From Chara braunii (taxonomy: Eukaryota > Plantae > Charophyceae): a stretch of 64,000 bases of DNA. Position 1 is the first letter of the stretch, and every line of letters begins with the position of its first letter. The notes beneath the pieces were generated by a model. It was not told the DNA's origin and did no database searches. It saw only the letters and a list, made by a program, of their open reading frames with translations. The position numbers and the translations under genes were made by a program. Positions 1 to 46,325 of the stretch are shown here, piece after piece. The DNA lies in assembly GCA_003427395.1 (NCBI GenBank), contig BFEA01000022.1, forward strand, positions 2,629,608 to 2,693,607, in the 5' to 3' direction.

Positions 1-3000
1 GCCTGTTCGTTGGGCCGGCGGGTTCCCGCCACGACCTGCTCCGTGAACCGGCGCGCCGCCCGTCGCAAACACGCCGCCCCTCCCGGCCTCCCCAAACCTT
101 CTTGCCCTCCTGGAAAGTACCGGGTCTCGCGTGTGGGACCCTGCCGCCGCGGGCGGTGTCTCGCCTGGGCCCGTCACGCGAAACCCGCCTTTTCCTTTAG
201 GGTATTAGAGAAATGAAACAATGAAACAAAATACTCGTACGTTCCGTAACACATTGCAGGGGGAGGCCTCTGATATACAACTGCAAACACACGAGAATCA
301 ATGCGAGCGATCGATCACCCACCAAAAGGAAATCACTCCGGGGAGCCTATAGTGTTTGAAGTCCCTTGGCCAGAAAACTGGTCGGTAGCAAAGTCCAGGA
401 AAACTCGCCCCGTACCCCATGCTCGAGACAGCGACCGAGACTTCATCACTCCACTCCTTAGTTTGAAAACGGGGGCTATCCCCCAGCATACGCGGCCGAA
501 TCCACGACCCGTGAGTGCCGTGGAGCGAAGCGAATACGAGGAGCTCCATCAGGGGGGCAAACGACACACATTCGAAGCTTCCAGCAGGCCTCTCCGCAAG
601 TGAAAACAACCCAAGCTACCCATCAGGTATCCACCCAAGGTGATAGTGCGAGGACGGTCGCTAGATGTCAGTTTAAACATACCAATGGACCGATACACGG
701 GGCGGTCGAGGCCAAAGAGCAGATATCAACAAGACGAGGAAAAGGCAAAGATCCACCCAATCATCATTACTCCACCGACCGCCCAAGGCAACAGCGGCTC
801 CAGAGGCATCGCCCAGCACACATCGGGAGGCCGTGAGTGTGAGGTCCATATCAACCAAGCAAGAAAGGATGTGGGGAGGATGGATAGAAGGGCTGGGCCG
901 AGGGAGAAGAGGAGGAGGATACATGGAAGAGGGATTCGAGATAAGTGAATGGCTAGGACATCCATCTCCCCCACTCTACAATCACCAAGGCAGCAAGCCT
1001 CCCCCACAAGCAACACAATACGCTTGCAGCAGGTTGTATCCTTCAAAGTCGAAACGACCCCTACCCAAGATTCAAAACTAGTTCTCAACACACCCTGCAT
1101 CTCTTCTGGATAGCAGAGGACACATTCCTGCAGACATCAGACTGCGGTAGCGAACGGACCGCGTGTAGATCAAGGAATGACAGAAACACTAGATATGCCA
1201 TAAATGCAATAAAAAAGATCACGGCCATGTGGACGAAAGCGAGCAGCTCCATGATGAATCAACTGACGAAGCTTCGGGAAGCAACTTCAAAATTCCAAAG
1301 ATGAAGCATATAAAAGGGCCTACGAACGCAACCACCCATCAAAAACATCACAAGTATGCAGAGCAAAAATGCAGACCGTTAAATCCATTCACGAATACGA
1401 GGTAAACAAAGTAATCAAGAGGCACATATAATTAGGGGGGGGCGAGGGAGGGTGGAGGGAGGCAAGGGAAGGAGATAAAGTCCCAGTTGAGTGAAGCGAC
1501 TCAAAAAATGCCGACACATGGAAAGAGGGTGATGGATCGCGCCCGTAAGTACTTTTCACCGGCCTCCATCCAGCCGGATCCTCAGAGAACATAATCACTT
1601 CCATAGTGTACCGAAAGGGACATAGATCCATATGGACATGACCGAGATCCTCGAGAGACATGCATAGGTGTAGTATGGAGTAGCCCGAGAGCAAGGGACA
1701 TGTAGGAACAGGGAGACTCGTTATCACACTTAGCGCGGAAGGGGGGGGAAATGGGGGGGGGGGGGGGGTTCAGGGGCTTAGCGGGTGCTTTGCCATTCCC
1801 GGCGCCATGCTTTGTCCGATGCAACGACAATGTCCGCGGCTCAGAGTTTGAAGGATCAGTCAGCAGCCAACACAATATGGTCCGCTTGTGAGTGTCCCGT
1901 AATCTATCCACTAGGCGGATGATGCGTTATCAGTGTCCACTCCAATACCTCGGGCCAGCAGTGCCGGCGACGACAAAAGCAAGATTCGTCCGCAAGGAAG
2001 CAAGCCAGGCCCATATATTCGTCGCCACGGTTGCCGAGCGAACAGATTTGCCAAGGCAGGAAGCGGGTACTCGATGCGCTTATTGCGGCGTCAACAGCTT
2101 GGGCAAGCGGCGCATGGCGATGGCGAGAGCCTCGGCTCGTTGGCGAAGGTTGCCCAAGGCACAATGCGCGAGGCATGGAGCAAATCAGGCGCGCGTTCTT
2201 CGATGCTACAGCAGCGCAGCGTTCCGAGTTGTCAACTTCAAAGAGAACCCGGATGGGGCAAACAGACATGCAGGCAGGCGGGGCGAAGGCGGGAGCAGAA
2301 ACAAGGCGGAAAGAAGGACGCGTCCCGTGGGCGGGCTATCCGGATTCGCAGTCTGTCCCCCGAGAGTATCAGGCGCACTAGACAGATGAGGACGAGCAGC
2401 ATGCTCCGAGGGCGTTGAAGTCGGAGAGGGAGGGAGCTGTCAACTACCAATGCTATATAATCCTCCGGGTGATGCACGGACAGTGTCCCACTGGTTTCGG
2501 GAGGGGGCGAAGGCTGGATCCGGGTTTGAATCCACGCCACTCGTTCCCGCCTCCCCAAACCAGGTTGTCAATGAGGCGGTTTTTTTTTTTAGGTCACCGG
2601 GCTACCCGTGGGGGTCCCCGTTAGTCCTAGGTAAATAGCCGATCTTAGTCGGCGGTTTGTCGGCGCAGGGAAGGGTCCCTGTTTTTCCACAGGCTGGTTC
2701 TGAGTCTCGTGCCTCGCCCTTGCGAAGTCCTTTTTTTTCCCGTCATTCATGGCTCCCAGGGTCCCATTCCTAGGGTGGCTCATGATTTTGGAGGGGACGG
2801 CACAGGGGCACCCTGTTCGCGTTTCCGCAAAGGGCCATTCCATAGGTGGGTCCCATGCCGCTGTCGGGACAGAAACCCCTGTAAGGGTTTCTGCCCGTTT
2901 TTTTCAAGGTCAGACGCTGCCCGACCCTTGCTTGGATTGAAAGACTTGATGAGATTGACGTTGCCAAAGGTTATTCAGACCAACCCAATAACTAAGAAAC

Positions 3001-3415
3001 CTAAAGCCTAACGTCGATGACGTAGGACGTCGTTGACGTGTGACGTCATTGACGTTCGTTCGAAACAGCGGGAGTCGGCAGTGCGGCCTGTCATCCATGG
3101 TTTTCGACAGGGCCGCGGTGGTGCGCGGTCATGAAAAGACTAAAGTTAGACCTATTCTAGGCCTAAGCGGGCTAAAAAGGAGTCGTTGCGACGAGGTTGG
3201 GACCCCAGCGTGAGGGACAGTTAGTTTTAGGGCCCGCATGATTTTTGCGCCAAGGACCAGGGGTGATGGCATTGGGGCCGGCTGGGTCGGGTAACCGTTA
3301 AGGCTGTCGGCCGCTAACCCAGCCAGCCAGCCATGGTGGTATACAGGCTTAGCGGGCAAAGCCTGCTAAGCGCCGTACGGGGACCTGCTGGGCGGCAGAA
3401 GCCCTTCATATAGAA

Positions 3416-3541
3416 GGGCTGCTCCTTTCTGTATGTGAAAAGGAGCTAGCCCAGTAGGTACCATAGCCAAGCTGTTACCCCGTGGATATAGGGATCGAAC
3501 CCGACAACAGGCAACTGGGCTAGTTCCTTTTGGAGCAGCCC
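3416..3541 (+). other. Long hairpin inside copy A
   Basis: GGGCTGCTCC pairs with GGAGCAGCCC; AAAAGGAGCTAGCCCAGT (3438-3455) pairs with ACTGGGCTAGTTCCTTTT (3514-3531). The same stem with a different loop occurs in copy D (~38612-38717). Confidence 0.75.
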
Positions 3542-3596
3542 AACCTTTTTGCGCGGCTGTTTTCGGTCGTGCGATCGCTGAGATTCGGAGGTCTAT

Positions 3597-3655
3597 ATGG
3601 CCCTGCGCAAGGATGACACGCATAAATTGAGAAATGGTACAATTTTTTTTTTTTT
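3597..3655 (+). ncRNA. U6: U6 snRNA 3'-half fragment inside copy A
   Basis: ATGGCCCTGCGCAAGGATGACACGCATAAATTGAGAAATGGTACAATTTT matches the plant U6 ISL/3' region and is followed by a T-run. The 5' half, including the ACAGAGA box, is absent. Confidence 0.85.
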
Positions 3656-4290
3656 CGATCCCTGGGGGATCGAACTTGGGTCTGGATTTCATCAGTTCGT
3701 GGGCTCCCCCATGAACGTGATGTGACCGTTGGCATAAGCCAACGGAAAAAAAANNNNNNNNNNNNNNNNNNNNNNNNNNNNNNNNNNNNNNNNNNNNNNN
3801 NNNAAAAAAAAAAAAAAAAAAAAAGAGCTAAAACGAAGTGCCACTTGGCACACCTGGATGTGACTGGGGCATTTCAAGCCCCAGTGCTTCGACAGTGCCC
3901 GCCCGTTTAAAACGGGCAGCTATGGGCCTCGCTGCACCACTCTCGAAATGGGCAAAACGAGAGTGAATCGTCCACTAGAATATGGAAAGATACACGGCCA
4001 TGATTTTTGTCTTTTGTGCATTTCAAGATTAGTGCAGTGAGGCCCTGTCTTAGGTAGATTTCCTTTTTTTGTTTTTCTTTTTATTTGTTTTAGATTCTGT
4101 CTAGATTTTATTCTTATATTTTGTTTAGATTTTTCTTTTTCTTTCCTTTTGAGTACCTGTTCGTTTTTGAACGAACGGGCAGCTCAAAAGCTCGACTGTT
4201 TCGTCGGACTTCCACCGACTCATCAGGAGGTTGTACCCCGACAGTCTGCTGATCGGGGTGAACCTTCAACCAGAACATGGAGACATACAC

Positions 4291-4295
<5 letters not shown>

Positions 4296-4357
<62 letters not shown>
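4296..4357. repeat. (AG)n microsatellite inside copy A
   Basis: Direct dinucleotide run; the homologous (CT)n run in copy D is at ~37612-37694. Confidence 0.95.
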
Positions 4358-4361
<4 letters not shown>

Positions 4362-5264
4362 AAAGCCCATCAGAGAGTGCCCGTTCGTTTTGAAACGGGC
4401 TGCTCTCTTGGGCCACCGCGCGCCTGTATCAGACGCCCAGCTTGCACCAGATACAGGCGCAGGGTAGGGGGCAAGGAAACCCTTTGAGCTTGACTCCAGT
4501 CCGACTCCGATAAATAACTGGGGTGGGGGCAGCCATTCGTTTCGAACGGCGAGTTGGCCCTCACAAAGAAATGAAGGGGTTAGGAAAGAAAAAAAAGGGG
4601 GAAAAGAGAAGGAGAAGAAGGAGAAGTTGGGAAAAAAAAACGGCCACGGATTTAACCGCGGCCTCAGTCCAGATGCAGGTTTAGAAGCATCTGGACTTTG
4701 ACAAGACAGCAGACGGTTGGATTCAACAGTCTGCTGAAAAAGGCTTTGTACAGCCTTTGGTAAGCTGCGTCTGGCCGCGAGTGAAGGCCAGATGCATTAC
4801 CAAAGGTCTGAACTTAGTTTCCTTAGGGGAACATCAGACTTTATGGCCCTTGATGGCGATCTAGATCAAGGGCCAGGCTCAGATCCGAGTTTTAGCTGGG
4901 GCAAGGCAGCTGCCCTCAGCCTTCAGCCAGCTATAAAACAGCCAGCACCTAGCCAGCCAGCATTCATTTGTGGCTGGTGCTGCTGGCATTCTGCTTAGTT
5001 GAATGCTGGCTGCTGGTGTGAGGAAGCTGCTGGAGAATGAGAGAGGGCTGAGCGGAGGTCTGCAAGAGAGTGAGGGAGGAGAACTGCTGGAAGTGGCCAT
5101 AGCTGTGGAACACAGCCATAGCCGCCATCTCAGCGAGGGGGAGAGAGGGAGAGAAGTGTTGGAGGTCTGCAGGGAGCATGAGAGTGAGGGCAGCCATAGC
5201 TGCCGCTGCACTTGGTGGAGCGCGGGGGAGGTGCTGTTCGTTCAGCACGGCGACGACATCGGGT

Positions 5265-5610
5265 TTATCAACGGTAGTGGGGAAGCGCTGCCGAAATTTT
5301 GTGGCGGCGGCTATGCCTTTTCAACGGTGGTGCGGAAGCGCTGCCGAAATTTTGCGTTGGCGGCTATGCCTTTTCAACGGTAGTGCGGAAGCGCTGCCGA
5401 AATCTTGCAGCGGCAGCTGTTTTTTTCAACGGTAGTGCGGAAGCGCTGCCGAAATTTTGCAGCGGCGGCTATGCCTTTTCAACGGTGGTGCGGAAGCGCT
5501 GCCAAAATTTTACGGCGGCAACTGATTTTTTTGGCGGTGACTCGGAAGCACTGCCAAAATTTTGCGGCGGCAGCGGTGTTTCTTTTAGTGGTGGTGTGGA
5601 TGTGCTGTCC
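5265..5610 (+). repeat. ~57-bp tandem repeats (TTTCAACGGTRGTGCGGAAGCGCTGCCGAAATTTTG...)
   Basis: About 5-6 degenerate tandem units. A degenerate counterpart lies at ~36520-36760, and the core GGGAAGCGCTGCC recurs on the minus strand at ~19902 and ~19988. Confidence 0.85.
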
Positions 5611-7904
5611 AGTTTTTACGGCGCCAACGACAATTTTGAGAAGTGTCGTCAAGAGGGGGCGTGTTTTGAGGTGGTGTTGACGTTGTGATGTCCGCATATT
5701 GCGGCGGCGACGCCTCGACACAGTGGTGACATAGTAGTACTGGTCGCAAGTGGTGACAGCGCTGAGGCACTGAGGGGATTGCGTGCCAGTGGGCGATCCT
5801 TGAGGGAGTGGTGTGTATCACTTTTCTGACAATTTACTGCGGCGATCTTCTCGTCTGGAGCGTGATCTTACACGGTTTTGTTGAATGAGCCACGTCCATC
5901 TCAACTTCACTCAAGGTTAGTTGAATGACTCAGATTTCCCTTCACACCTGTGTGAACCCACACTTGCTTGACCCTGTTCTTTGAATGTTCACTGAAAGGG
6001 TAGAGGAAGTTGTGTTTTGTTTGCACGCGTGAATGGAAGTCTGACATGAGTTCGGGGAGTGCATTGTTTTCGTTTGAACCTATTGTTTGATTTGATGTGC
6101 AGGTAAGTAGAAGGATGCTTGAAATGATGATTGTTTTCTATTTTTTGCTTGCATGCATGTTGAAAGGATGGGAAGACAACTGACGACGAGAAACGGAGCG
6201 ATCACACAAAGGGGTAGAAGTGATTCGTCTAGGTTCGCCCTTGACGTCAGGCGATAAGGGTTGACCGTCTGCTATGGTAAGTGCATTACCTTTCCCTAGG
6301 AGGCATCTGAGGCGGGGGTTCGTTGCCTTAGGGGCCGACCCTGTTAGCGTCTCGGAGTGGACCGCTTAGGCGGGGGGATACCATGCTGTCGTGGTGGAGC
6401 CAGCCCGACTTCTGAGATCCGAGGCTCGCTCGGGCGAGGACGAGGGGTATCCGAGACCACCTCCTAGGGGATGGGTGTGTGCTATTCACGGGAGGTGTCA
6501 AGTTCTTGGCGGCTCACGTTAAGAAGGACCGCTATAGTTTACCCTTCTAGTGGCCGTCTTAGGAGCCACAGACGAATGGGGAACTGGTGCCATAAGAAGC
6601 CCAGTTCGTGTGTTCACTAGCTATGGATGGAGTGCGACTAGGCACTATCTTCGCGGATAGGGTTGCACCATAAGAAGTGCAAGCCTAGGACGATCAGACT
6701 AGTTGACGGAAAAAATGTAACTAAAGCATGGCCTTGAATATCTTTATATCGCAGACTGGTATTTCATCATTCGTGAAACAGAAAAAGTAATTATTGCTCA
6801 GGAGGACAAAGCGACCAACATGGATCATTCGCTGAGCTTCATCATTTGAAAATGGATCCTTGACCTCAATGAGGCATTCAACGTTCGGTCGTTGAAGTCG
6901 AGTACTGACTTGTAGAGGTGGTAGCCGAATTACTTGCATATGACATTCACGCCAAAGTTAGCGAAGTAATGAAGTCGTCACTAAAACAATAACACCCTAG
7001 AGTCTGAATTTATCTGCGTTTCTTTTCTAGCAGTCAGTATGGGGCGGAATGAAAGAACTTGGCAACGCATCTCATCAAGTCGAGAAAGTCGTGACAGTCC
7101 AGCCGTCTGGCAGGCAGAGTGCAGATGCCTTAGTCAGGCGTCATTTAAGCGTCGCATTGTGTATAGGTCATGCTTTGATTTTTTGTTGATAAGAGTTGTT
7201 TGAAGCCAAGTCAACATTTGTCGCATGCATGATTGTATTATATATAGGTTGATTTAAGAAGATATGTCAACTTACGTTGACCTGAGTCTTCTTTTGATGT
7301 TTAACTTTTGATTGTCTTTGGAAGAAGGGACTAGGATTGATTGAGGTTTTCTTACGCTTGGAATATCACGTCTTAGTCGACCGACGTTGGTCCGATTCCT
7401 GGGAGATCAGCGCCCCAGGGACAGACGGCGTTCGGGTTCACTTCGGTGTTTAACCATGCGTACCTATGCTACAGCGAGCGAGCAAACGCCCTCGGCCGGC
7501 CTACCTCTGCAATTGCATTATAAAAGTTTTCACATGTGGGTCGGTAGCTCGGCGGGGATACGCCCCTAAGGGTGGTGACAGCCCCTTAGGGAAGGTAAGT
7601 TGTGCCCCACGGAAACCTATCCTGTCGTAGGGGACCGCGGGATGTACAGCTGGCGCACTCGGTCGGAGCGGCGAAGGGTCGGCGCGGGTTACCGTGTCAT
7701 CCCCGAGTTGTCTCTAGAAAGTTAAAAGACTAAGTTTCTCCTGCGTGACGCGGCTGGGAGGGCCCTCGCTCGCGCGGGGGCCGATGCGCTCGACACCGCA
7801 AGCACGAAATGTGGGCACGTAGGTACCTGGCACCCGACCATCAGCATTCCATTGTATTTTAATAACCTCTCCTATGTTTGCCTAAGCCCAAGTGCAAGAG
7901 TGAG

Positions 7905-10621: not shown

Positions 10622-10696
10622 GTTAAGAAAGACAAGAATGAGAGACCATTTCTCATGTCCGGGTGCAAAGTGGCAGATGGCCAGGGGAAGATGCTG
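10622..10696 (+). CDS. ACA: Internal exon of an autoinhibited P2B-type Ca2+-ATPase (ACA8/9/10-like), actuator domain
   Basis: cag|GTT...CTG|gt boundaries, phase 0, 25 codons: VKKDKNERPFLMSGCKVADGQGKML, matching the PFLMSGCKVADG motif of plant ACA pumps. Not in the ORF track. Confidence 0.85.
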
Positions 10697-16500: not shown

Positions 16501-17556
16501 ATCCTCATAATGTAAGCGCAATTCCCTCGAGCCATATGTATACACGGAGTCCAACCTTTTTTCATTCTTGTATGCCGCTGTTGTACCAAATACCCTTACA
16601 AGGGTATTTGGCGTTGTCGCGCGCATCGGTCCCGCACGGGGACCCTCCCGGCTGCGTCATGCAGGATTTGGCAGGACTTGTCGCGGAGAGCGTTTGCCGC
16701 TCCAGCCGAGTGCGCCAGCCGTACCTCTCTCGAGCCCCTACGACAGGACAGGGTCATGCGAGGCACCACTTACCTCCACCTGCGGGAGCTGTCACCATCC
16801 CTTAGGTGGGCGTATCCCTGCCGAGCTACTGAACCATATGCGAAAGCTTTTCGTATGCAATTGCAGAGGTGGCCCAACCGAGGGTGTTTCTCGTTCGCTG
16901 TAGCATAGGGGGTTACGCGTGGTCGAACGCCCAAAAATCGGACCCGTACGCGAGTCGCCGTACTGGGGGGCTGAAGTCCCAATCGCAACTCGGCGCCGGT
17001 CGATTAGGACGCACTACACACACCACGCATTACACCACAACACTCACACCTACCACTTATGACACATGGAACACACACAAACAAACACCACACACAACGC
17101 CACGATGCAACAAATCCTAGTCCCTTCAGTATCCGACCCATAACTTTGTACAGCGAAGTCAGGTAAGTATCGCGCGCTGGACTTTCGTATAAGTGTCGGG
17201 CCTGCGCATGGCCTCCTCATACCAACCAGCCATGCGGGCATATGCAAACATTCGCGCTGATGGGGTACCTTGTAGTACTCGTAGCCTCGTGGCCCTTGAT
17301 ATTTTCGAGGGTCGCGTTCGACACTCAAGTGTCAGCTGACAGGCGCTTTGAGGGGTAATCTCTCGACGCCAGACAACCATCATGTGCGTTTGAAGACCGC
17401 ACCCTCTTCTGCACCCTGTGTAGAGGGGTTGAGTAGACGGCTTTAGGCTGTCGTGGCGGTCAAACATCAAGGGGTTTGACTTTGACGGCTGCCATGGACT
17501 ATAACGTCCAACCATGAAAAACCCAAAAAAGGAAAACTCCCTCCGACTCTCATTAA

Positions 17557-18563
17557 ACCACCACTCTATGGGATAGGACGAAATTGCGCCTACCGGTAGG
17601 CCGAATTTGCGAAACGGCGTCCGGACTACCGGTACGCGAGCGTACTACTGGGTTACCCTTTTCGTCAGTCCTGTCCGTGGGCCCAGCAATTGCAAGTGTA
17701 TGATTTTTTTTATTTTTATTTTTTTTGAATGGGAAAAAAAAAAAAAAAAAAAAAATTACAAATGTCTTTTCGGATGGATCCCTGTCAGGGGCCGCTGTTG
17801 TTGCGGCGCCGTGTGCACAGAATTGCAGTTACGGTCGGATCCCCTTCGTAGGGCCTGTTGGGATGAATGTGCGAATCTGGACGCTGGGCCTGGTAGAGAT
17901 TCAGGAAAGCATATTTGCACGACGCAGCACGGGCACACAGAAACTACGAAGGGGCTTGCACACAAAAGCGACGAAGCGACGAAGGCCCTTGCTGCAACTC
18001 TTGACATGCACAAAAGACAAAAATCTTGGCGGTGTATCTTTTCGAAATGCAGTGGAAGATTCACCATCGTTTGGCACATTTCCAGAGTACTGCAGCCCTT
18101 GCCGGTGTATCTTCCCGATACCAGGGGAAGATTCACTCTCGTTTTGCACATTTCGAGAGGCCCCAAGCCAATACGGCCACGTTGGCGAAGACGTTTGTTT
18201 CTGCCCTCAACCGTTTTTTTTTTTTTTTGGCCTCACCTTCTATGCATGTGGACGCGGAAACGTGTGGCGGGACTGCAAAAAAATAAAACAAGGCCCATGA
18301 AAATATGAAAATATAAAAGAAAAAAAATAAATTGAATGTCTGTTTTTATTTTTTTGTAGACTTCGAAAGTGTTCTGGAAAGTGGCGGCCGCCACTGTTCC
18401 CGCCTTCGACAGCAGGGAAAATCACCTGACCCCGAAGGTGTCACTAGTTCCGACTTTCCCAGGGAGCTGGGCCTGCTGTTTCGCCCACCGGTCGCCGCCC
18501 TCCCTAAATAATCGCCCGGACTCACAGGAGGGGCTATTTCCTCCTGTCCCGTAGAGTGGTGGT
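17557..18563. mobile_element. Non-autonomous TIR element with TTAA TSD (piggyBac- or Kolobok-type target)
   Basis: ttaa|ACCACCACTCTATGGGATAGGA ... TCCTGTCCCGTAGAGTGGTGGT|ttaa. Confidence 0.85.
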
Positions 18564-26380: not shown

Positions 26381-26473
26381 GGGCTCTCCCCGAATTTATG
26401 CGGATCGTCCTTGCGCAGGGGCCATGCTAATCTGCCCAGTATCGTTCCAATGTCCACGAATGTCCCGAAGGAC
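26381..26473 (-). ncRNA. U6: Near full-length U6-like sequence with altered ACAGAGA box inside copy C
   Basis: Minus strand GTCCTTCGGGACATTCGTGGACATTGGAACGATACTGGGCAGATTAGCATGGCCCCTGCGCAAGGACGATCCGCATAAATTCG. 5' stem-loop, AGC triad and ISL are intact; ACAGAGA is replaced by ACTGGGC; no U-tail. Confidence 0.85.
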
Positions 26474-29400: not shown

Positions 29401-30799
29401 CTCGTTGTGTCTGCTGCTGCTGCTGCTGCTGCTGGCCACCATCTGCAAGCTGATCGTATTCGGGTTCTGGGTTGTTGTTGGTCCAGACTCTCGTGGTTTT
29501 CGGCACTGCTGGTGCTGATGTTGAAGATTGGTATTTGATGAGGCCAAGGGGCTCCTGCAGCTAAGGCCTAAGGAACCACTACTACAGTCGTGGGTAGCAG
29601 CTAATAGTTAGTAACACTATTGGTTTTAGCAGCAAAGATTATTTTGGGCCACCATTGCTAAAAGACTAATGAGACTGCTGGAGTTGCTTGCTGCTGCTAT
29701 TTGAATCAGAAGTACTATTGCGTACTATTGCAAATGTTGTGCCTTCTATTGTACCTTTGCTGCCCTCGGCTACTGAGTGTCTGATGTGTAGTTGTTGTGC
29801 TCCTCGTTCTTGTTGTTGCTGTGCACTCATTGTACGATTGTTGTGCATTACTGTGCATGGCACTAGGCCTCAACTGTTCAGAGCTGTGAATTAATGTCTT
29901 CTCTATTGTGCACTACCGCGTACCGTTGCTGAGCACACTATGTTTGCTGAGTGTATTGTTGCACAACACTGTACATTATTATAGTGTCTTGTTGTGTCAC
30001 ACAGCTGTTGTGCGGCCCACATTTGGCAATACATGTACTCCGTCACTGTTATTGTTCCCCTTTCGGGCGCTGTGTTTTGCTGCTCGCCATCACCGACTGC
30101 TATGGACCAGTGTATTTGTGAAACTTGTTACTGGCATTGCTATCTGTTAGATTACTGTGCATAACGGCAGTGTACGCCGCTGTTTGACTTAGTATCATTT
30201 GCACTCCGAATAGAGCACAAGGGTGTGCTCTATTCTAACACAGCTTTTCGAGGCTGTGTAGTGGCAATCCGGTCAGGAAGAACGGCGTTTTGCTTTCGAA
30301 GGAGCGAACAGGCTGCAAGAGGGGATTATTGTTGTGACTTGGGGGTTCGTCAAAGTGCTGCTGTTCTGCGTCTGAAGGAATCAAGGCCCTCTCACGCGAG
30401 TCTGAGCGCACCTCTCTTGTATCTGAGCGACTCAATCTCTCTCCTTCTGCCCTTCTTACTCTCAGTCTAGTCTCTTGGTTTAGAGAGGAAGGCGGCAGGC
30501 GGGATTGAAACCCGTAATCCGTGCTGAGGCCTTTGTGGGAGGTCCGCCCCACCGATTGCAGGAGCTCTGCCGGGGTTCAGGGAGGACCTTGGAGGCAGGG
30601 AACTTTGAAGTAGGTCGACACGATCTCCCGTAGGATCGTGTATACCCCTCTCTATATCTCCTTTCATTCAGTTTGCTTGAGTTTTGACTTTTTGTATATT
30701 TCCTTGACTTAATTCAGGACTTTAACTTAATCAGAGGAAATTTACTATATTTGTCTAAATTTATCTGTCTTAAATGAAATCCACGATGTTTGCTTGCGA

Positions 30800-31135
30800 T
30801 GATTTGAATGGGGCTGGAAATGAGGTCCTTCTGACTGATCCGGTCGCCTTGCTCGTTTTGCCTAAGACATTGAACTGGGGTTGGAGATAAGGTCGTTCTA
30901 ACTGATTCGGTCGCNNNNNNNNNNNNNNNNNNNNNNNNNNNNNNNNNNNNNNNNNNNNNNNNNNNNNNNNNNNNTCGTTTTGCTTAAGACATTGAACTGG
31001 GGATGGAGATGAGGTCCTTCTGACTGATCCGGTCGCCTTGCTCGTTTTGCCTAAGACATTGAACTGGGGCTGAAGATGAGGTCGTTCTAATTGATTCGGT
31101 CGCCTTGCTAAGTCTGTCAGATTGCATGGGGTTGG
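30800..31135. repeat. ~70-bp tandem repeats spanning an assembly gap (inside copy B)
   Basis: Units of GACATTGAACTGGG...GAGGTC...CTGAT.CGGTCGCCTTGCT; copy number is uncertain because of the N-run. Confidence 0.75.
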
Positions 31136-33991
31136 CTGAGAACAACTTTGAAAGATAATCAACCGAGTAAGATACAGGACAAATGTTTCTATGATCAAGA
31201 CAAGCGAAAGATGAACACGTTGGATGAATGAACACTTGTTTTTGAACTGGCTGAATGAGTTGTTGACATGACATGCTTGTTAGCAAAGCCTCGTCTTTTG
31301 TTCAAGTTTTGTCTATTTCAGCTGCTTAATAGGGTAGTTTGTTAGTGCTCGCCACGTGCAGGAGCTATAGGAGTTAGTTCAATTCTTGCATTTTCTGAGT
31401 TAAGTTTTACTTAGTTTAAGTTATCACATTTTTTTGGATCATTTATTTTACTTGGCTTTGGCGGTTGTCTTGCGTCGAGAGATTAATCCCTCAAGTCGTG
31501 TGTCAGCCGACACTGGAGTGTTGAACGTGACCCTCGAGACTATCAAGATTAACCCCTCAAGTCGCGTGTCAGTATGGGTACCACATAGTATGCCATCATT
31601 GCGACTGCTTGCGAATCGTTGCATGGCTAGTCGATATGAGAAATCCTTGCATCCGTGCAGTTTTATATTAAGACGCTCGCGCGATGCTTAACCGGTTTCC
31701 GTATGAGAAGGTTATGGGTTGGATACTAAAGGGACTAGGAGTGTTTTTGTTTTGTGTGATTGATCCGACTTTTGTTTTGGCGTGGTGTAACGTGTGGTAA
31801 GAAGGATGCGTCCTAGTCGACCGACGACGAGTCGCGCTTGGGACTTCAGCCCCCCAATGCGTCGGTTTGCGTACGGGTTCGATAAAGGCGTGGAACCGCG
31901 CGTACCCCCTATGCTACAGTGTACGAGAAAACGCCCTCGGTTGGTCCACCTCTGCGATTGCATGTAAAAGCTTTCGTATTGTGGACTGGTAGCTCGGCGG
32001 GGATACGCCCACCTAAGGGATGGTGACAGCTCCCGCAAGTGGAGGTAAGTTATACCTCGCGTGACCCTATCCTGTTGTAGGGGTTTGCGAGAGGTATGGC
32101 TGGCGCACTAGGCCGGAGCGGCAACGCTTTACGACTAAAGTCCTACCGAATCCTGCATGATGCGGCCGAGAAGGTCCCCTCTCATTGCGGGGACCGTGCG
32201 AGCGACACCGCTATACAATCCACACATCCCCTCTTGATTACCCATACACCAGGGATGGAGGATAATATGAGTAGCTCATTGAAGCTAACGACACAAGCAA
32301 TGTGGGAGAGTTGACGTCAACGGTGAGCCCATGAGTAGTGCTTTTACGCAGAACTCAATTCTTTCTTTTGTGCAAATCGTTCTCGCACATTCCCCCTTGC
32401 TCTTATCCATAACTGTCTCGAGAGCTCAGTGTCCTTGCCGAGGCGAGCTGGTCATAGCACTCATTGGGCGAGATGTCTCAAAAGGCACGGGTCAAGCAGG
32501 AAAACATGGACCATGCGATTGGTACCCGCTATGAACACACACACCTCGTTCATGAGAGAGACTCACATGCTCCTCCGAGCCATACTCGTAAAAAAAAAAA
32601 AAAAAAAAAAACTGATGACTTTGATTGCCCTTCCCATAACTGTCTCGCCACCACACGCACTCAGTCCCTCTGGCGTCGCGAGATGGCTTTCGGACCGTCT
32701 TCCACAGACGCGATTGGCGGGAGGTCCTTCCGCCACTGTTACAGATTGTGCCACGACGTCTCTATGCTGCTAGCTTCAGAGTCAGGCCCTAAGCCCCTGC
32801 CCATGCATTGTTCTTACGGTCTGTAGCCCTCTCGCAGACTCGACGTTCTCTGTTAGTAGCATTGTGTCTGGAGGGGGAGTCTCAACATCATTTGCATCTC
32901 TCTTGCGCGGGTTGCATGTCGCATACACGAGAGGTCCCTTTCTCTCTCTCTCTCTCACTCTCTCTTCTCTGAATGCCCCCTCTCCCTGTCTTGCCCGCTT
33001 CTCTCTCAGAGACCCCGTCGAGGCGAGTTGACCTTTGGGCCCTCCTCTACCTGCTCTGTCGGATGGTGGTCCCTTCGCCATTGCTCTCGCCCGTGCCAGG
33101 ATCGGGTTTCAATGTCGCTCTCTTCACTTTCCGCTTCAGAGTCTCGGTTCAGATTTATTTGTTCCCGCTCTGTAGTACCAGTTGAAGACTTTGTCTCATG
33201 ATAGGCAATCGTAACTTCAATGCACGCAGTAACGTGGTCATGTCGACGTCTCCTTTCCACTCTGTTTTTTTGCTTCGGTGATAGCTGCCTGCAACTTTTG
33301 GTCCTCCCTTATCTCAGCATCTCTACCTCCTTCGACATTAATCTTCAGTCTCGCATCATCTCCATCAAAATTCAGGATCGTTGTGATCCAAGGGCCCTCC
33401 CCAGATGCTAATGACGAACGGGTTAGTAACCTCCAACAGTTAGGCTTGTAACCCTCTAGCCCTCTTCGGCATGCCATTGTCGCACACTTTGAAATAGCCT
33501 CAGCTTGGCAGTAGCCTGCACACTCACACTGTACGTTCGGAGCACTGGACAGTGAAGTCCTGATAGTGTTGGTCGGAGTGTGTCGCCGCCTAACACGGCT
33601 ATTTTAACTTACAGCGAGAGTGTACCCGACCATACGGAATTAGCGGTGCACCAGCACATGCTTCACACGCGCTACCACAGGACTGAAAGTCCCCGATGAC
33701 TACGCAGTTAGCTATTACCTTTGTAGAGCCCAAAAGGCCACGATCCCAGTGTACTACATGAGATACTTTAAAAACGTTTTTGAATTAATATCTAACGTGG
33801 GGCTGCATAAGAATAATATTCTAACCAATAATAACTAAGAAAAGGAAGGCAGTCACGACTCAACGGTCACAGTGCCCGCAGTCTTCGAATTATCTTGGGG
33901 GCTCGGCGCGCAGTGGTCCCATAACTGGACACCGATCGGTTTCTCCCTCCCTTTTTAGGGGGCTATCAGACTAATCCTAATGGGTACCCGT

Positions 33992-36900
33992 TGTCGAGCG
34001 CATCGGCCCCCGCGCGAGCGAGGGCCCTTCCGACCCCGTCACTCAGGAAAAACTTAGGCTTTCAACTTTTTAAAGACAACTCGGGGACGACACGGTAACT
34101 CGCGTCGACCCTTTGCCGCTCCGGCTGAGTGCGCCAGCTGTACATCCCGCGGTCCCCTACGACAGGATAGGTTCTCACGGGGCACAATTTACCTCCCCTA
34201 AGGGGTTGTCACCACCCTCAGGGGCGTATCCCCACCGAGCTACCAACCCACATGCGAAGGCTTTTCTGATGCAATTGCAGAGGTAGGCCGACTGAGGGCG
34301 TTTGCTCGTTCGCTGTGGCATAGGTACGCATGGTTGAACGCCAAAGTGGACCCGAATGTCGTCCACCCCTGGGGCGCTGATCTCCCAGGAATTGGAACGT
34401 ACGCCGATCGAGTAGGACGTGATATTCCAAGCGTAAGGAAAACTTCGAGCGATCCTAGTCTTTCAAAGACAATCAAGAGTTACTCAGACAAAACAGTTTC
34501 AAATGAAGAAGACTAAGGTCAACGTAAGTTGACTTATCTTCTTAAATCGATTTATCCATAATAGGATCATGCATACCACTCGTTCAGATTAAATGTACGA
34601 AGGCTGACTTGACTTGTCATCCAACGACGAGCCAACATGAGTTGACTTGACTTCAAATAACACTTATCAACAAAAGGATAAAAACATGATTAACATCCAT
34701 AACGACGCTCAAATGGCGTCTGACCAAAATATCTCCACTCTGCCTGCCAAATGGCCGAGTTGATGAGATGCGTTGCCAAGTTCTTTCATTCCGCCCCATA
34801 CTGACTGCTAGAAAAGAAACGCAGACATCCTCCAACTCTCAAGTAGAGCTAGTATATCATTGCTTTAATGGTGACTTCACTATCTTTCTAACTTTGGTGT
34901 GAATGACTTCCGCAAGTAATCCAGCGACGACTATTCAAATTAGCGGCCGATTTAGACAACCGACGCATTGGTTACCCTGCCGAGGACGGGGTTCTGGTTC
35001 TAAATTTTATTAGTCGCTTTGTCCTCCTAGGTAACAATGGCTCTTTCCATCCCACGAATGATGAAGTATCCATCTTCATCATAAGATTGTTCAAAGCATC
35101 GCTCTAGTCGCTACTTCCTATCAACCCATCTCAACTTCCCCAGGTTTGCACTTCTTGTGGAGCGAACCTATCCGCGAAGGTAGTGCCTACTCGCACTCCA
35201 TCCAAGACTAGTAATTACACGAACTGGGCTTCTTCTGGCGCCAGTTCCCCATACGTCAGTGGCTCCTAAAATGGCCACTAGAGGGGTATGCTATGGCAGT
35301 TCCCCTTAACGCGAGGTGTCAAGAAAACTCAAGCCCCTTCCATGAATCGGCGCATGTCCTTTCCCTAGGAAGTGGTATGGGATACCCCTCGTCGTCGCCC
35401 GAGCGAACCTCGGATCTCAGAAGTCGGGCGGGCTCCACCACAACAACATGGTATCCCCCCGCATAAGCGATCCACTTCGAGTCGATAGCGGGGCCGGCCC
35501 CTAAGGCAACGAACCCCCGCCTCAGATGTCTCCTAGGGAAGGGAAAAACGTCTACCACGGTGGGCAAAACGATCCCTCGACGCCTAACGTCAAGGGTAAA
35601 TTAGACAAAAAAAGAGATCACAGAAGAGAAAATCATTCAGACAGACGGGCATAGACAGGGAGGGTCATTCGAGGAAAAACGGGTAACCTCAGAAAAAAAA
35701 TCTATGTCCGATTGATTTCTTCTTCTTTGTGTGATCAAATTCCTTTTCGTCATCTACTGGTTGTCCTTCCCTTGAACATGCATGTAAGTGAGAAATAGAA
35801 AACAACCATCCTTCTATTCATTTCCATTAACATGGATAGGTTCCTCTTTTCCAGGCATCCTTCTACCTATCTGCACATCAGGACAAACAACGAGTTCAAA
35901 AAAAGACAATACAATCCCAAACTCATGTCAGACTTCCATTCACACATGCAAACAAAACACAACTTCATCTACCTCTTCAGTGAACATTCAAAGAACAGGG
36001 TCAAGCACGTGTGGGTTGCGAAGGGTTATGAGTCAAACTGACTGACCTTGAGTGAAGTTGATGTACGACTCACTCAAGAAAATCGTATGAAATCTCGTTT
36101 CAAATGAAAAGATCCCCTATAAAGCGATCCACACCACACCCTGGTGGTCGTTCATCACAAGAAGCCGTTAGCAAAGTGATCCACACCACTCTCTACAACG
36201 ATTGCATGCCGCAATACTCTCTCAACACACAATCACCTCCCAATAATCTGACGACGTCTTAGCATCACCGTTACACCAACCGCGCCACCACGCAGTTGCC
36301 GTCAATACCAGAACACCCTGCCACAGAATGTCCCTCACAGCCAAGACAACCCGGCCAGTCTCACGCACCACTGCCGTTAATGCTGCCATCAACCACCACT
36401 AGCGTCACTGCGACACCATCACCAGCGTCAACATGTTGCCCCCGCGCTATACGGACAACATAACACCAGCACTAACTTAAAAAAACATGCCACCACTTTG
36501 ACGACACTTCCCCTGTGTCAATGCCTCATCACCGCAAAAAACGGGCAGCGCTTTCGTGCCACCATCCAAAATGCACTACTGCCACCGTGCAAAACGGGCA
36601 ATGCTTCCGCGCCACCACCTAGAACACACTGCCGCCTGCCGTAAAAAATGGGAAGCACTTCCACTTTGCACCTCACCACAATCGGCTGCCGTCGCCGCAA
36701 AAAATGGGCAACACTTCCTCGCCACCGCCAAAACGTGCCGCCGTTGCCGTGCCGAGCGGACAGCACCCCTCCTGCGTTTCACCAAGTGCAGCGGCAGCTA
36801 TGACTACCCTCACTCCCGCGGTCTCTGCAGACCTCCAACGCTTCTCTCTCCCCTCGCTGAGATGGCGGCTATGGCTGTGTTTCACAGCTATAGCCACCTC

Positions 36901-37608
36901 CAACAGTCCTCCTCTCTCTCTTGCAGACCTCCACTCAGCTCCTTCTCACTCCACCAGCATCTCCTCCTCCAGCAGCCAGCATTCACCCAAGCGAAATGCT
37001 AGCAGCACCAGCCACAAATGAATGTTGGGCAGCTGGCTGCTGGCTGTTTTATAGCTGGCTGGAGGCTGAGGGCAGTTGCTTTGCCCCCAGCCAAAATTCG
37101 GAGTGAGGCCTGGCCCTTGATCTCAAACGCGATCAAGGGCTGGGAAACTTGATGTTCCCCTAGGGGAACCAAGTTCCAGGCCTTGGTAATGCATCTGGCC
37201 GCAACCCCCGACCAGATGCAGCCTTAAATGGCTGTATAGAGCCAAGTAGAGCAGACTGTTGAAGTTCAACAGCCTGCTGTCAACTCAGAGTCCAGATGCT
37301 TCTACCCCTGCATCTGCCCTACGTCGTGCTTAGATTCGAGACGTTCTGTTTTTTTTTTTTTTTTTTTTGTTCCCATCTCCCCCCCTTCATTTCCTCCCTG
37401 TGAGGGGCCGCTGGTTTTTCGAAACGAGCGGCCTGAAAATTGTGTCATTTCACAGAGGCGAACTAGAGTCAAGCTCAACTGGGTCTTCTTTCCCCTTTCA
37501 ACCGTGCGCCTGTATCTGGCACGCAAATTGCTCCTGATCCAGGCGCAACAGCTGCCCACCAGATTACACTGCAGCCCGTTTTCGAACGGGCACAGTCTTG
37601 GTGGGGGA

Positions 37609-37697
<89 letters not shown>

Positions 37698-39324
37698 AAC
37701 CCGACGGTCGCGACCGTCTGCCGCGAACTGGAAACCATCCCAAAGCGTGTGCAGAGAGTGCCTCGTAACTCAAGTACAAGGTCCCAAAACCCACACCCGG
37801 AACATAGCCACTTTTTGTGGCAGATTCATCCAGTTTTGCTCATCCTATACAAAAATGGTTGCCCGTTCGTCAAAAACGAACGGGCAGTTTACTAATTTCA
37901 CTAATAAAACGAAAAAGAAATCAATAGACTCTTTAAAAAATCTAAAGCAAATCTAAAAAGAAATCTAAAAAAGGAACAAGGGAAAAAAAAAAAATGAAAA
38001 CTTACTTTTAAAACAAAGAGACTGCCCGTGAAAACGGGCGTCTGCAACAACCTTTGGGGACCTTAAGTCTCCTCAGTGGCGCCTCGGTTGTGGTTTTAGT
38101 TTTTTTTTTTACTATTCCGTTGTCTTTGCCAACGGTTACGTCTTCACGTGGCTGAAAAAACACGACTCTGGTGATACAGACCCAAGTTTGAATCAACGAA
38201 AAATTTGAACTTTTTTTTTTTTTTTCCCCTCGATTATGCGTGTCATCTCTGCGCAGATAGATGACACAGATCGCGCGGCCTGAAACGGCCGTATCGGATC
38301 CGAGCGGCTGATTTTCAGCCGTATGATCTTACAGATCGCGCGGCCTGAAACGGCCGTATCAGATGACTTTTCCGCATGGCCGCTCCCAAAAGGAGTTAGC
38401 CCAGTGGGGCCTTCTGGCTTTGATCCCTGCGTCCCCGAGGTGAGAAGTTGGTGCAGTTCCTACTTTTTTTTTTTTTTTTTTTCCCCTCGATTATGCGGGT
38501 CATCTCTGCGCAGTAGGTCACATCGTATCCGAGCGGCTGATTTTCAGCCGTGTGATCTTACAAATCGCGCGGCCTGAAACGGCCGTATCGGATGACTTTT
38601 CCGCATGGCCGCTCCCAAAAGGAGCTAGCCCAGTGGGGCCTTCTGGCTTTGATCCCTGCGTCTCCGAGGTGAGAAGTCGGTGCAGTTCCTACTGGGCTAG
38701 CTCCTATTACGGGAGCTATAACCGCAACTCTTCTACCTGAAGGGCTGCACACAGTAGGCCTCCCATTTTCTGGCCTAGGCAGGCTCGATCCTGGCTCCCG
38801 TTCAACGTCGGCATCCCACCACCTAACTGGTTGGAGCCCAACCCAGAAGCGCGATAAGGCATCCTTTTAGCCATATATACGACTTCGGGCTCCGAACGGA
38901 GTCAAATCACGCAGCCCACAAAAATCAATAGACCCCTTATTCTTTCCGTGTCGTGGCCCCATACCCGGCGCGATCACTCTTTTAAGCCTACTCAGGTCCT
39001 GGATCGCGAGGCTGAGCAGCCGCGCGATATTATTTTAGGTAGACGAAGTCTAGCTTTAGTCTTTCCATGATCGCGCACCCCTGCGGCCTTGTCGGGAACC
39101 GCAGGCGACAAGTCGTACTGCTGACTCCCGCTGTTTCGATCGAACGACAATGACGTAATACGTCAACGACGTAAGGTTTTAGGTCTCTCAGTTATAGGGT
39201 TGGTCTGAATAAACTTTGGCAACGTCAATCTCATCATATTCCTCAAATCCAACGAAAAGAGTCGGACAACGTCTGACCTTGAAAAACTCGAGCAGAAACC
39301 CTCACAGGGGTTTCTGTCCCGACA
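33992..39324 (-). mobile_element. NCGY family copy D (~5.3 kb), diverged inverted homolog of copy A
   Basis: TGTCGAGCGCATC ... CTGTCCCGACA; exact TSD CCGT (33988-33991 / 39325-39328). Confidence 0.9.
38210..38705 (-). repeat. Tandem duplication (~240-260 bp) carrying two degenerate U6 3' fragments
   Basis: Minus-strand CTGCGCAGAGATGACACGCATAATCGA (38230-38256) and CTGCGCAGAGATGACCCGCATAATCGA (38487-38513), each followed by GGGG and an A-run. Confidence 0.75.
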
Positions 39325-44239: not shown

Positions 44240-45044
44240 CCACCAGTTCGCACAATGCTAAATTGACAAACTGAAAATTGCACGTTTCCTAGCCTGCTAC
44301 ATTAACAAGCTGAAAAGAAAAATCTCGGGATACTGGTACCAGCCTACCTTGAAATTCAATTGTTGTACCTCGTGCCAACAGATGGCACCGATAAGCCAAA
44401 AAAAAAAAAAAAAAAACCCTACTAAATCCAGATCAATGATGAACAGAAAAGAGATGTGGGGAAAGCCATTTCATGAAAGAAACAAAAAAGAGATGTGGGG
44501 AAAGCCACCTGACTTGTCCATAATATATTTGACCACTATCACTGGCAAATCATTGGAATTCCTTCTTCTTTCTTGCAATGCCCTACCTGTGAGGCAGGGC
44601 ATATTCCACGTTCGCCGGAAAGACCCTCACTGAGGGCATACTCATACTAGTACTTTTGAGACTGTATCTGACCGCTATCATGGCCATATCTTTTATTCCC
44701 GTTTTCTTTTTTTCGTATTCACATTCTTGGGAATGCCTTCACTCAGGGCATACTCACAGAACTATGTTCCAGAACGTATCAGATGGATATTATATCCAAA
44801 TTCGTTTTGTTTTCCTTTTGTTTTTTTCTAAGATTAGTGCCCTACCAGCAAGGCAGGACGTCTGAGTTAATAGTGCAATAAAGCCCAATTTCTCATTTTT
44901 TTCTCAATTTTGCTTTCAATCCATTCTTCTTGGGCCCACCAGCCTTTTCCCTCCGAACCTGCATCGTGTCGGATCGCTGTTCACCTTGCCACGGTCGCAG
45001 TGTAGTGCGTTTTGGTGAATAGTAGGGGTTCGTGAACTGGCGGC
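44240..45044. mobile_element. Non-autonomous TIR element inserted at TTAA in the RNase H region
   Basis: ttaa|CCACCAGTTCGC ... GTGAACTGGCGGC|ttaa. Removing it restores the pol frame (LRWIK-MQP). Termini resemble those of 17557-18563. Confidence 0.75.
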
Positions 45045-45423
45045 TTAAGATGCAACCTGCTGTCTCTGACACACTCAAGAGGTGGATTGAAGTCATAAAT
45101 ATGTACGACTTCAAGTTGGACCACCTCAACGGAGAGTACAATAAGGTAGTGGATGCTTTATCTAGGAGAGAGGACTATCTGGGCGCGCTAGTGACTAAGT
45201 TTGGTATATCCGATGATGTAATTCGATCCATGGTGGAAGCCTATCGAGAGGACACATTGACGTTTGAGATCATGCACAAGCTCGAGGTCAAAGATAAGGT
45301 AGCATTCGATGCATTTGTGCTGGTCAATGGCTTGCTGTTTCTCGAGAATGCCCGGAATAAAAGATTGTGTATACCGTCTTAAGAATCTTTGCATATTTTA
45401 TTTCTAGGTGAATGTCATAACGC

Positions 45424-46325
45424 TTTTGAGCGTATCGGTCCCGCAGGGGGACCCTTCCGACCACATCACGCAGGATTATGCAGGGCTTGTCGTGGAGAGC
45501 GTTTGCCGCTCCGGGCGAGTGCGCTAGCCATACCTCTCACGAACCCCTACGACAAGATAGGGCACGCGAGGTACAACTTACTTCCATCCGCGGGAGCTGT
45601 CACCATCCCTTGGGCGGGCGTATTCCCCCCGAGTTACCGAACCACATGCGAAGACTTTTCGTATGCAATCGCAGAGGTGGCCCAATCGAGGGCGTTTCTC
45701 GTTTGCTGTAGCATAGGGGGTACACGCAGTTAATGCCTCGAATCGGACCCGTACGTGAATTGACGCATTGGGGGGCTGAGGTTCCAAGCACGACTCGTCG
45801 TCGGTCGACTAGGACGCATTCCACTCACCACGCGTTACACCACACAATAATTAAAAAAAATGCACACAAAAACAAAACTCTCCTAGTCCCTTCAATATCC
45901 AACCTTTAACCTTTTAACACGAAAATCGGTTAGGCGCCGCGCACGAGACTCAAGATAAAACCGCGCGAGGGCTTTTCTCATATATACTAGCCATGCAAGC
46001 ATACGCAAACAGTCGCAACGATGGAGTACTGTGTAATACCCATAATTACGCGATCCTCGATAAACTCGAGGGTCACGTTCGACACTCAAGTGTCAGCTGA
46101 CACTCGCCTTGAGGAGTTAATCTCTCGACGCTAGACAACCGCCAAGGCGGTTGATGACCACACCCTCTTATCTGATCAAATTGCGTGTCTGTCATTCCCA
46201 AAGTCCGAGAGTTGGTTGTCATTACGCAGAAATGAGACACTCTCTCGAATATCACCAGAAATGCATCTTCTGCCAGATGCAAAAAAATGTGCACAAATAC
46301 CCTTGTAAGGGTATTTGGGCCGACA
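45424..46325 (-). mobile_element. NCGY family copy E, minimal 0.9-kb form, inserted in the integrase zinc-finger region
   Basis: Ends palindrome + GGGCCGACA; TSD ACGC/ATGC (one CpG transition). Excision restores ECHNATGH. About 750 bp is homologous to the end of copies B and C. Confidence 0.85.

What the first reader, a model, noticed from the sequence alone, without database searches (positions are those of the whole stretch)
2862..46325. Five copies of one non-coding element family (0.9-11 kb) with conserved ends and variable RNA-like cargo
Seen: copies A-E have TGTCG...CGACA-type termini, 4-bp TSDs, a palindrome near one end and a shared ~400-750-bp opposite end, but different interiors and no pol or transposase. 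Each has two different ends and a TSD. Inference: they are either solo LTRs (an ~10-kb LTR would be exceptionally long) or non-autonomous elements moved in trans by an integrase. Copy E looks like a minimal deletion form that carries its own TSD.
Basis: partly seen in the sequence, partly recalled or inferred. Interest (0 to 1): 0.85.

Follow-up and report, generated by a model that had tools for sequence, protein, structure and literature searches.

The report
Giant solo LTRs carrying RNA fragments
Five non-coding repeats of 0.9-11 kb in what is likely a stonewort (Chara) alga genome share two different ends and CG-centred 4-base target duplications, and three carry pieces resembling U6 or ribosomal RNA; they are likely the leftover single ends (solo LTRs) of a retrotransposon with unusually long ends, probably present in thousands of copies.

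Summary
The five units are A 2862-7795, B 33992-39324, C 16615-27568 (nested in D), D 16579-32207 and E 45424-46325. Each has one palindromic end (P), one conserved ~400-750-bp end (Q), a 5-bp terminal inverted repeat (decayed in D and E) and a 4-bp NCGN target duplication. Public contigs show the empty sites of E and C, and unrelated flanks at both ends in about 50-70 contigs per end. Depth ratios suggest roughly 10^4 copies. No pol or transposase was found. The only named relative is a Chara braunii gene model.

Best reading (0.62): solo LTRs of a Ty3/gypsy family with 5-11-kb LTRs. The one plant lineage reported with 4-bp NCGN TSDs is moss Phygy. The termini are LTR-like, not Ginger1-like (40-270-bp TIRs). 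The Q end is predicted to fold as RNA on one strand, carries a splice-donor-like motif, and U6- and 28S-like pieces lie on that strand.

The link to gag-pol is not shown, because no genome was available. Trans-mobilised DNA elements (0.2) remain possible. A and B are one collinear subfamily, so the 'variable cargo' is partly subfamily divergence. E is not shown to have moved as a mini-element.

The parts
2862..7795 (+). Element A (4934 bp, P to Q on +), TSD CCGC; AB subfamily
33992..39324 (-). Element B (5333 bp, P to Q on -), TSD CCGT; collinear with A
16615..27568 (-). Element C (10954 bp), TSD GCGT, inserted 36 bp into D's palindromic end
   Evidence: 50-61 contigs per run continue from 16614 into D-like sequence matching 27573 onward
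16579..32207 (+). Element D (4671 bp of its own, interrupted by C), TSD CCGC; has a 60-bp N gap
45424..46325 (-). Element E (902 bp; P end plus Q end, interior missing), TSD ACGC/ATGC
   Evidence: empty-site contig joins 45418 to 46326, net 906 bp = E plus one TSD
2866..2896 (+). P-end palindrome (12-13-bp arms; two paired positions differ in both arms between AB and CDE); same structure at each P end
7380..7795 (+). Conserved Q end (inferred R/U5), predicted structured on the P-to-Q strand; donor-like GTAAGT/GTAAAT at 7595 (A), 34192 (B), 16773 (C), 32045 (D), 45581 (E)
26374..26473 (-). Full-length diverged U6-like sequence in C, sense to P-to-Q
   Evidence: Rfam U6 60.6 bits, above gathering score 44
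3597..3648 (+). U6 3'-half-like piece in A; degenerate duplicated copy in B (38212-38257 and about 38490-38515)
   Evidence: A 37 bits, E 8.9e-6; B only 11.9 bits, E 0.86; alignment
3441..3533 (+). ~90-nt hairpin with 13-14-bp closing stem, A/B-box-like motifs (recalled consensus) and T4; also in B; not called as tRNA
   Evidence: fold z -3.9 and -3.1; ARAGORN 0
37430..37495 (-). 28S/25S rRNA-like fragment in B (model positions from 2399), sense to P-to-Q; decayed ortholog in A at 4468-4540
   Evidence: B E 5.3e-5; A E 8.8, weak; both from 101-bp searches
4193..4247 (-). Type III hammerhead ribozyme-like motif in A only, antisense to P-to-Q
   Evidence: Rfam Hammerhead_3 48.5 bits (equal to the gathering score), E 9.5e-8
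20455..21350 (-). Ten copies of a short near-palindromic unit in C's interior
21873..22105 (-). 235-bp block shared by C and D (D: 30372-30605), 82.5% identical

Best explanation
These five non-coding units with TGTCG..CGACA-type ends and 4-bp NCGN target duplications are likely solo LTRs, left by inferred LTR-LTR recombination, of an abundant Ty3/gypsy retrotransposon group with unusually long LTRs, likely related to the non-chromovirus Phygy lineage. Inferred orientation: P end = U3 start, Q end = R/U5. A full element would be transcribed P-to-Q from inside the LTR, reverse transcribed, and integrated by an integrase that cuts 4 bp apart at NCGN. The short terminal inverted repeats would be its att sites. 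The long interior would be fast-evolving U3, which grew by duplication and shuffling and picked up abundant RNAs (U6, 28S, a Pol III-like hairpin), either by template switching or by SINE-like insertion into an ancestral LTR that then spread. Recombination between the two long LTRs would leave one LTR with the original TSD. E would be an internally deleted LTR. Shown: borders, TSDs, target preference, high copy depth, non-coding state, RNA-like pieces. Inferred: LTR identity, orientation, the Phygy link and the capture route.
For: (1) Terminal inverted repeat only 5 bp in A, B and C, LTR-like; Ginger1 has 40-270-bp TIRs (PMC2836005 passages). (2) TSDs are NCGN in 5 of 5. Loose-end majority letters next to both termini end in ACGT or ACGC in all three DNA runs. 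Phygy is listed with '4 bp (100%) (NCGN)' TSDs and is the only plant lineage with that preference (PMC6317226 passages and Additional file 5). The same paper gives non-chromovirus LTRs up to about 5 kb, the size of A, B and D. (3) Strand asymmetry: the P-to-Q strand is G+T-rich in 5 of 5 (0.544-0.576). RNAalifold covariation term is -3.44 on it and +2.84 on the other strand. The last 200 nt fold better P-to-Q in 5 of 5, though only A, B and D reach z below -2. A donor-like GTAA(G/A)T sits at one aligned site in 5 of 5. (4) U6-like and 28S-like pieces lie sense to P-to-Q. Small-RNA pieces inside LTRs have precedent: Cassandra, Helenus, Ajax (PMC10886601 passages). (5) Interiors share motifs in the same orientation (A-C 38 vs 3 shared 12-mers, C-D 48 vs 2) but in different order, as in U3 turnover (recalled). 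(6) The solo-to-full ratio is reported to correlate with LTR length (PMC7251063 passages citing Du et al.).
Against: No copy was seen beside a PBS, PPT or pol: 0 of 5 in the window. Flanks of 47-68 contigs per end agree only 0.37-0.40, though a shared internal region would collapse into few contigs and be outvoted in that count. 5 of 5 units are single. Phygy elements are short (7.7-10 kb in total), so these cannot be typical Phygy. The hammerhead is antisense and in A only. RNA reads lie on both strands with no piled starts or ends. Structure support comes from 5 related sequences, with a structure fitted to them. Protein searches found no gene model joining these ends to gag or pol.
Confidence: 0.62

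Rival explanations
1. Non-autonomous cut-and-paste DNA elements with asymmetric ends, moved in trans by a Ginger1-like integrase-type transposase. The P palindrome and the Q hairpin would be transposase binding sites, and the interiors captured or expanded DNA.
For: Ginger1 has TGTNR termini and 4-bp CCGG or CCGT/ACGG TSDs, and B's TSD is CCGT. All 5 units are single with unrelated flanks. Both ends carry a hairpin a few bases in. The P palindrome keeps pairing through changes on both arms. P and Q terminal depth ratios are of similar size (about 9,000-9,900 vs 6,400-6,600).
Against: The TIR is 5 bp, not 40-270 bp. No transposase remnant. The Ginger1 examples in the passages read are animal. 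The plant integrase-like superfamily GingerRoot has 6-bp TSDs and 100-150-bp TIRs. The one-strand RNA-type structure and the donor pointing out of the Q end are not expected of a DNA transposon end. The short form E is not amplified, unlike a MITE.
Confidence: 0.2
2. Single-unit retroelements: the unit is copied from its own (perhaps circular or Pol III-started) RNA, or from one-LTR DNA circles, and integrated by a Gypsy integrase in trans without ever needing a two-LTR parent, as proposed for retrozymes.
For: Retrozymes have type III hammerheads, 4-bp TSDs and a proposed route to solo-LTR-length cDNA from circular RNA (PMC4918200 passages). A holds a type III hammerhead motif and a Pol III-like hairpin. 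Only single units were seen.
Against: The hammerhead is in 1 of 5 copies, antisense, and mid-element. There is no PBS or PPT for priming. Retrozyme LTRs are 300-400 bp. No abundant discrete RNA: 131 of 16.7 million reads on the terminal stretch, on both strands.
Confidence: 0.1
3. One ordinary, already annotated LTR family of about 1-5 kb whose size differences come from unrelated nested insertions.
For: The window is full of nested elements, and C sits inside D. Old LINE/PLE pieces lacking TSDs could hide in C. Repbase/Dfam and the Chara repeat library could not be searched.
Against: A and B are collinear across the interior. C shares same-strand motifs with A and a 235-bp block with D. No Pfam transposon hit inside. 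A TG..CA plus 5-bp TSD scan gave scattered hits with no convincing nested element (not controlled against shuffles).
Confidence: 0.08

Closest known systems
Phygy (non-chromovirus Ty3/gypsy of Physcomitrella; PMC6317226)
   Same: 4-bp TSD with NCGN preference; streptophyte host
   Different: Phygy totals 7.7-10 kb and is mostly polyprotein; here single units reach 5-11 kb; no pol or tRNA-Trp PBS seen here
Ogre/Tat/Athila large-LTR non-chromoviruses (PMC6317226)
   Same: LTRs up to about 5 kb, expanded non-coding regions with tandem repeats
   Different: mostly 5-bp TSDs without sequence preference (TatI 4 bp); C is about twice as long
Ginger1 DNA transposons (PMC2836005)
   Same: TGT termini, 4-bp CG-centred TSD (CCGG, CCGT/ACGG), non-autonomous copies known
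   Different: 40-270-bp TIRs there, 5 bp here; no transposase found
Cassandra / Helenus / Ajax TRIMs (PMC10886601)
   Same: small-RNA-derived sequence inside an LTR
   Different: those are 0.3-1.3-kb two-LTR elements with 5S or tRNA pieces; 'snRNA' does not occur in that paper's text; here U6- and 28S-like pieces sit in multi-kb units
Retrozymes (PMC4918200)
   Same: type III hammerhead, 4-bp TSD, non-coding
   Different: hammerhead in each 300-400-bp LTR with PBS and PPT there; here in one copy, antisense
GingerRoot/IS3EU (PMC6839031)
   Same: integrase-related element in a plant that carries host fragments
   Different: 6-bp TSD, TA..TA ends, 100-150-bp TIRs

Membership tests
Solo LTR of Ty3/gypsy | TG..CA termini with short inverted repeat | tested here: met
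   TGTCG..CGACA in A, B, C; one change in D; decayed in E
Solo LTR of Ty3/gypsy | 4-6-bp TSD around a single non-coding unit, no PBS/PPT outside | tested here: met
   empty sites
Solo LTR of Ty3/gypsy | same sequence occurs as paired direct repeats flanking PBS-gag-pol-PPT | not testable with these tools
   no genome held; collection scans empty or chance; contig flank majority cannot reveal collapsed internal regions
Solo LTR of Ty3/gypsy | U3-R-U5 with transcription start and polyadenylation site | tested here: inconclusive
   strand-biased structure and donor-like motif; no conserved TATA or AATAAA; no piled read starts or ends
Phygy lineage | 4-bp NCGN TSD | tested here: met
   5 of 5; flank majority in contigs
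Phygy lineage | RT/RH/INT phylogeny and tRNA-Trp PBS | not testable with these tools
   no linked pol; the paper's sequence file is too large to read
Phygy lineage | total length 7.7-10 kb, mostly polyprotein | tested here: not met
   single units of 4.7-11 kb imply much longer full elements; not filed as Phygy, only integrase-like in behaviour
Ginger1 | 40-270-bp TIRs | tested here: not met
   5 matching bases, then mismatch
Ginger1 | 4-bp CCGG or CCGT/ACGG TSD | tested here: inconclusive
   1 of 5 is CCGT; all share the central CG
Ginger1 | integrase-like transposase in autonomous copies | not testable with these tools
   none in these 5; genome not available
Retrozyme | hammerhead in each of two 300-400-bp LTRs, with PBS and PPT | tested here: not met
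   one hammerhead motif in 1 of 5 units; no PBS/PPT
GingerRoot/IS3EU | 6-bp TSD, 100-150-bp TIRs | tested here: not met

The most novel reading that the evidence does not exclude
A family of about 10^4 copies that moves as one non-coding unit with two different integrase-type ends, with no paired LTRs and no TIRs. It would be mobilised in trans by a Gypsy/Ginger1-type integrase and keep a functional U6-derived module across subfamilies: a living intermediate between an LTR and a Ginger1 DNA transposon. A milder version is a true LTR of 11 kb, about twice the longest in the plant survey read here.
Probability: 0.22. Interest if true: 0.78.

Novelty: new variant of a known kind. Interest (0 to 1): 0.46.

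Why it matters
If they are solo LTRs, they extend LTR size to about 11 kb, beyond the 6-kb cap of the structural search used in the plant LTR survey (PMC6317226). They would place an NCGN-targeting, Phygy-like integrase in a charophyte alga and add U6 and 28S pieces to the list of RNAs carried in LTRs. The five units fill 42% of this window, so the family may explain a sizeable part of the genome's repeats. If they move as single units, they would bear directly on the proposed link between Gypsy integrases and Ginger1 DNA transposons.

Tried and rejected
No whole genome was held. Pattern scans found nothing in viral contigs or metagenome contigs. The single prokaryote-genome hit, L001, matches only about 22 bp and is taken as chance. 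Earlier-findings look-ups were empty.

Coding remnants: no codon-position bias and many non-triplet indels between A and B; no Pfam transposon family. Only ORFs of 88 aa or more were scanned, so a heavily broken gene could be missed.

Searches for gene models fusing element peptides to gag/pol: 0 hits, and one Chara model, CBR_g57072, that reads into a Q end from an unidentified upstream sequence (the Atlas gave no family). P0001 and P0004 are repeat-driven false hits.

A purine-rich majority line before the P end in 17 RNA reads (agreement 0.55) was considered as a PPT. It was not accepted, because it ends in an NCGN site like a TSD and may be one expressed locus; it is not excluded. No RNA holder was listed for the stretch searched.

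miRNA and snoRNA Rfam hits are microsatellite or low-score noise. The structured-looking stretch at 17400-19400 has no Rfam family. A tRNA call for the hairpin was rejected. Blastn of the 28S-like piece against plasmids was uninformative. The short-LTR Gypsy at about 51.6-60 kb has different LTRs and is not the partner.
Full report
Host. The window is eukaryotic and repeat-dense, with Gypsy RT and LINE zf-RVT pieces. No whole genome was held. A phmmer search with a peptide translated from D's Q end gave 4 hits. One is named: hypothetical protein CBR_g57072 [Chara braunii], whose last ~70 residues follow a Q end. I therefore take the host as likely Chara; this rests on that one named hit.

Anatomy. 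Self-comparison and end alignments define five units: A 2862-7795 (+), B 33992-39324 (-), C 16615-27568 (-), D 16579-32207 (+, 4671 bp without C) and E 45424-46325 (-). Together they are 26.8 kb, 42% of the window. Each has a P end (TGTCG, then a palindrome with 12-13-bp arms; z -4.2 and -5.3 in A and C) and a Q end conserved over about 400 bp among all five (68-88%) and about 750 bp among C, D and E. Profile searches find exactly five of each end. The terminal inverted repeat is 5 bp. TSDs are CCGC, CCGT, GCGT, CCGC and ACGC/ATGC. Motif-plus-TSD pairs by themselves occur at chance level (26 of 5987). These, however, fall on the homology borders, and 5 of 5 are NCGN.

Borders confirmed elsewhere. 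Laying public DNA contigs on E gave 9,145-12,779 contigs per run at 80% likeness. One contig joins 45418 to 46326 with one letter between, a net 906 bp, which is E plus one TSD copy. On 16545-16700, 50-61 contigs per run continue from D's first 36 bp into sequence matching 27573 onward (27 of 30 letters by eye), which is C's empty site. Outside the P and Q termini, 47-68 contigs per end and run carry long unrelated flanks (agreement 0.37-0.40). Their majority letters end in ACGT or ACGC, so the NCGN preference is genome-wide. Summed depth over flank depth is about 9,000-9,900 for the CDE-type P end and 6,400-6,600 near the Q end. The tool warns that this is not a copy number, so read it as order 10^3-10^4. 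These DNA runs come from one study and may be the assembly's own source. E's junction region shows only about 1-3 copy depth (position 46189), so E is not an amplified mini-element as far as seen.

Interiors. There was no transposon Pfam family in 73 of 73 element ORFs of 88 aa or more, no tblastn match from the window's Gypsy or LINE ORFs, and no codon pattern between A and B. A and B are collinear, with blocks at 63-85%. C and D share 235 bp at 82.5%. A and C share motifs in the same orientation (38 vs 3 12-mers) but in different order. RNA-like pieces: a full-length U6-like in C (60.6 bits), a 3' half in A (E 8.9e-6) and a weak one in B (E 0.86), all a short way after a shared CTGGGCTA motif; a 28S-like fragment in B (E 5.3e-5 on a 101-bp search) with a weak ortholog in A (E 8.8); a ~90-nt closed hairpin ending in T4 in A and B (not a tRNA by ARAGORN; the A/B-box likeness is recalled consensus with mismatches); and a type III hammerhead motif in A only, on the opposite strand. 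A further U6-like copy lies outside all units at 9667-9771, so U6 pieces are not unique to the family.

Strand signal. The P-to-Q strand is G+T-rich in all five. The Q-end consensus fold has a favourable covariation term on that strand (-3.44) and an unfavourable one on the other (+2.84). 17 of 107 pairs change on both sides, against a shuffle mean of 10.4, but the structure was fitted to five related sequences and this is only suggestive. Single-sequence z-scores for the last 200 nt are -3.7, -2.0, -1.4, -2.6 and -0.1 P-to-Q, against -1.1, +1.0, +0.4, -2.0 and +0.2. The 200 nt further in show no signal. A donor-like GTAA(G/A)T sits 158-201 nt from the Q end in 5 of 5, pointing outward; exact AGGTAAGT occurs 9 times in the window on both strands. 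RNA reads are few (37 of 8.9 million on E; 131 of 16.7 million on the termini), lie on both strands and mostly run on into unlike sequence. They do not give a direction.

Comparison. In PMC6317226 (passages and Additional file 5 seen; Additional file 1 and the sequence file were too large to read), Phygy is the one plant lineage with an NCGN preference and 100% 4-bp TSDs. Phygy elements themselves are only 7.7-10 kb. Ginger1 (PMC2836005, passages) has TGTNR ends and CCGG or CCGT TSDs but 40-270-bp TIRs. GingerRoot (PMC6839031, abstract and part of the results) has 6-bp TSDs. IS481EU (PMC10045372, passages) has TIRs and is confined to parabasalids. Small-RNA-bearing LTRs (PMC10886601, passages) and retrozymes (PMC4918200, passages) are precedents for RNA modules in LTRs but are ten times smaller. 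PMC7251063 (passages) links LTR length to solo formation, and PMC6911290 (passages) confirms 4-bp TSDs for Phygy. Nine paper searches listed no description of this family. The Chara genome paper, Repbase and Dfam were not seen, so it may already stand in a repeat library.

Mechanism and verdict. A single non-coding unit with two unlike ends, 5-bp terminal repeats and an integrase-type TSD is by default a solo LTR. The strand signals fit P = U3 start and Q = R/U5, with a long labile U3 (0.62). The missing piece is any copy linked to PBS, gag-pol or PPT. 0 of 5 here have one, and the contig test cannot see collapsed internal regions, so trans-mobilised DNA units (0.2) and single-unit retro-mobilisation (0.1) stay open. 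Real feature, new variant of a known kind, interest 0.46.

Noticed in passing
window 51657-59981: Separate Ty3/gypsy element with short LTRs (174-bp match at 96.6%) and a TGGTATC-type PBS. It holds gag-like, protease, RT and an integrase-region piece that lies on the opposite strand from RT, plus a LINE zf-RVT-like insert at 55580-56758.
   Followed up: partly
window 39921-47393: Second, decayed copy of that Gypsy family, with gag on the minus strand and protease/RT on the plus strand, and two N gaps; inversion or misassembly. Element E lies between its RT and integrase pieces.
   Followed up: partly
window 9667-9771: U6-like copy (57.7 bits) with a 5-nt insertion outside all five units, in otherwise unclassified sequence.
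   Followed up: partly
window 11145-11960: Cluster of (CT)n, (GA)n and (TG)n arrays with local inverted repeats, including a 143-bp palindrome at 11814-11956; MITE-like.
   Followed up: no
window 18380-19150 (inside C): About 800 bp rich in short hairpins with UUCG/GAAA-type loops on the P-to-Q strand; no Rfam family.
   Followed up: partly
window 3897, 4379, 37574, 37861: Recurring palindrome GCCCG..N..CGGGC around the (AG)n tract in A and B.
   Followed up: no
window 5264-5628; 36555, 19913, 19998, 22658: 53-bp tandem array in A whose core motif recurs in B and three times in C.
   Followed up: partly
window 50437-51429: 1-kb (GAA/GAC)n array next to the Gypsy LTR.
   Followed up: no
window 62976-63998: LINE C-terminal zf-RVT ORF on the minus strand, running off the window.
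   Followed up: no
window 16575-16579 (RNA run X7): RNA reads crossing the P terminus show two partly shared upstream sequences (11 and 17 reads), one purine-rich. Either expressed loci or a hint of a PPT-side junction.
   Followed up: partly
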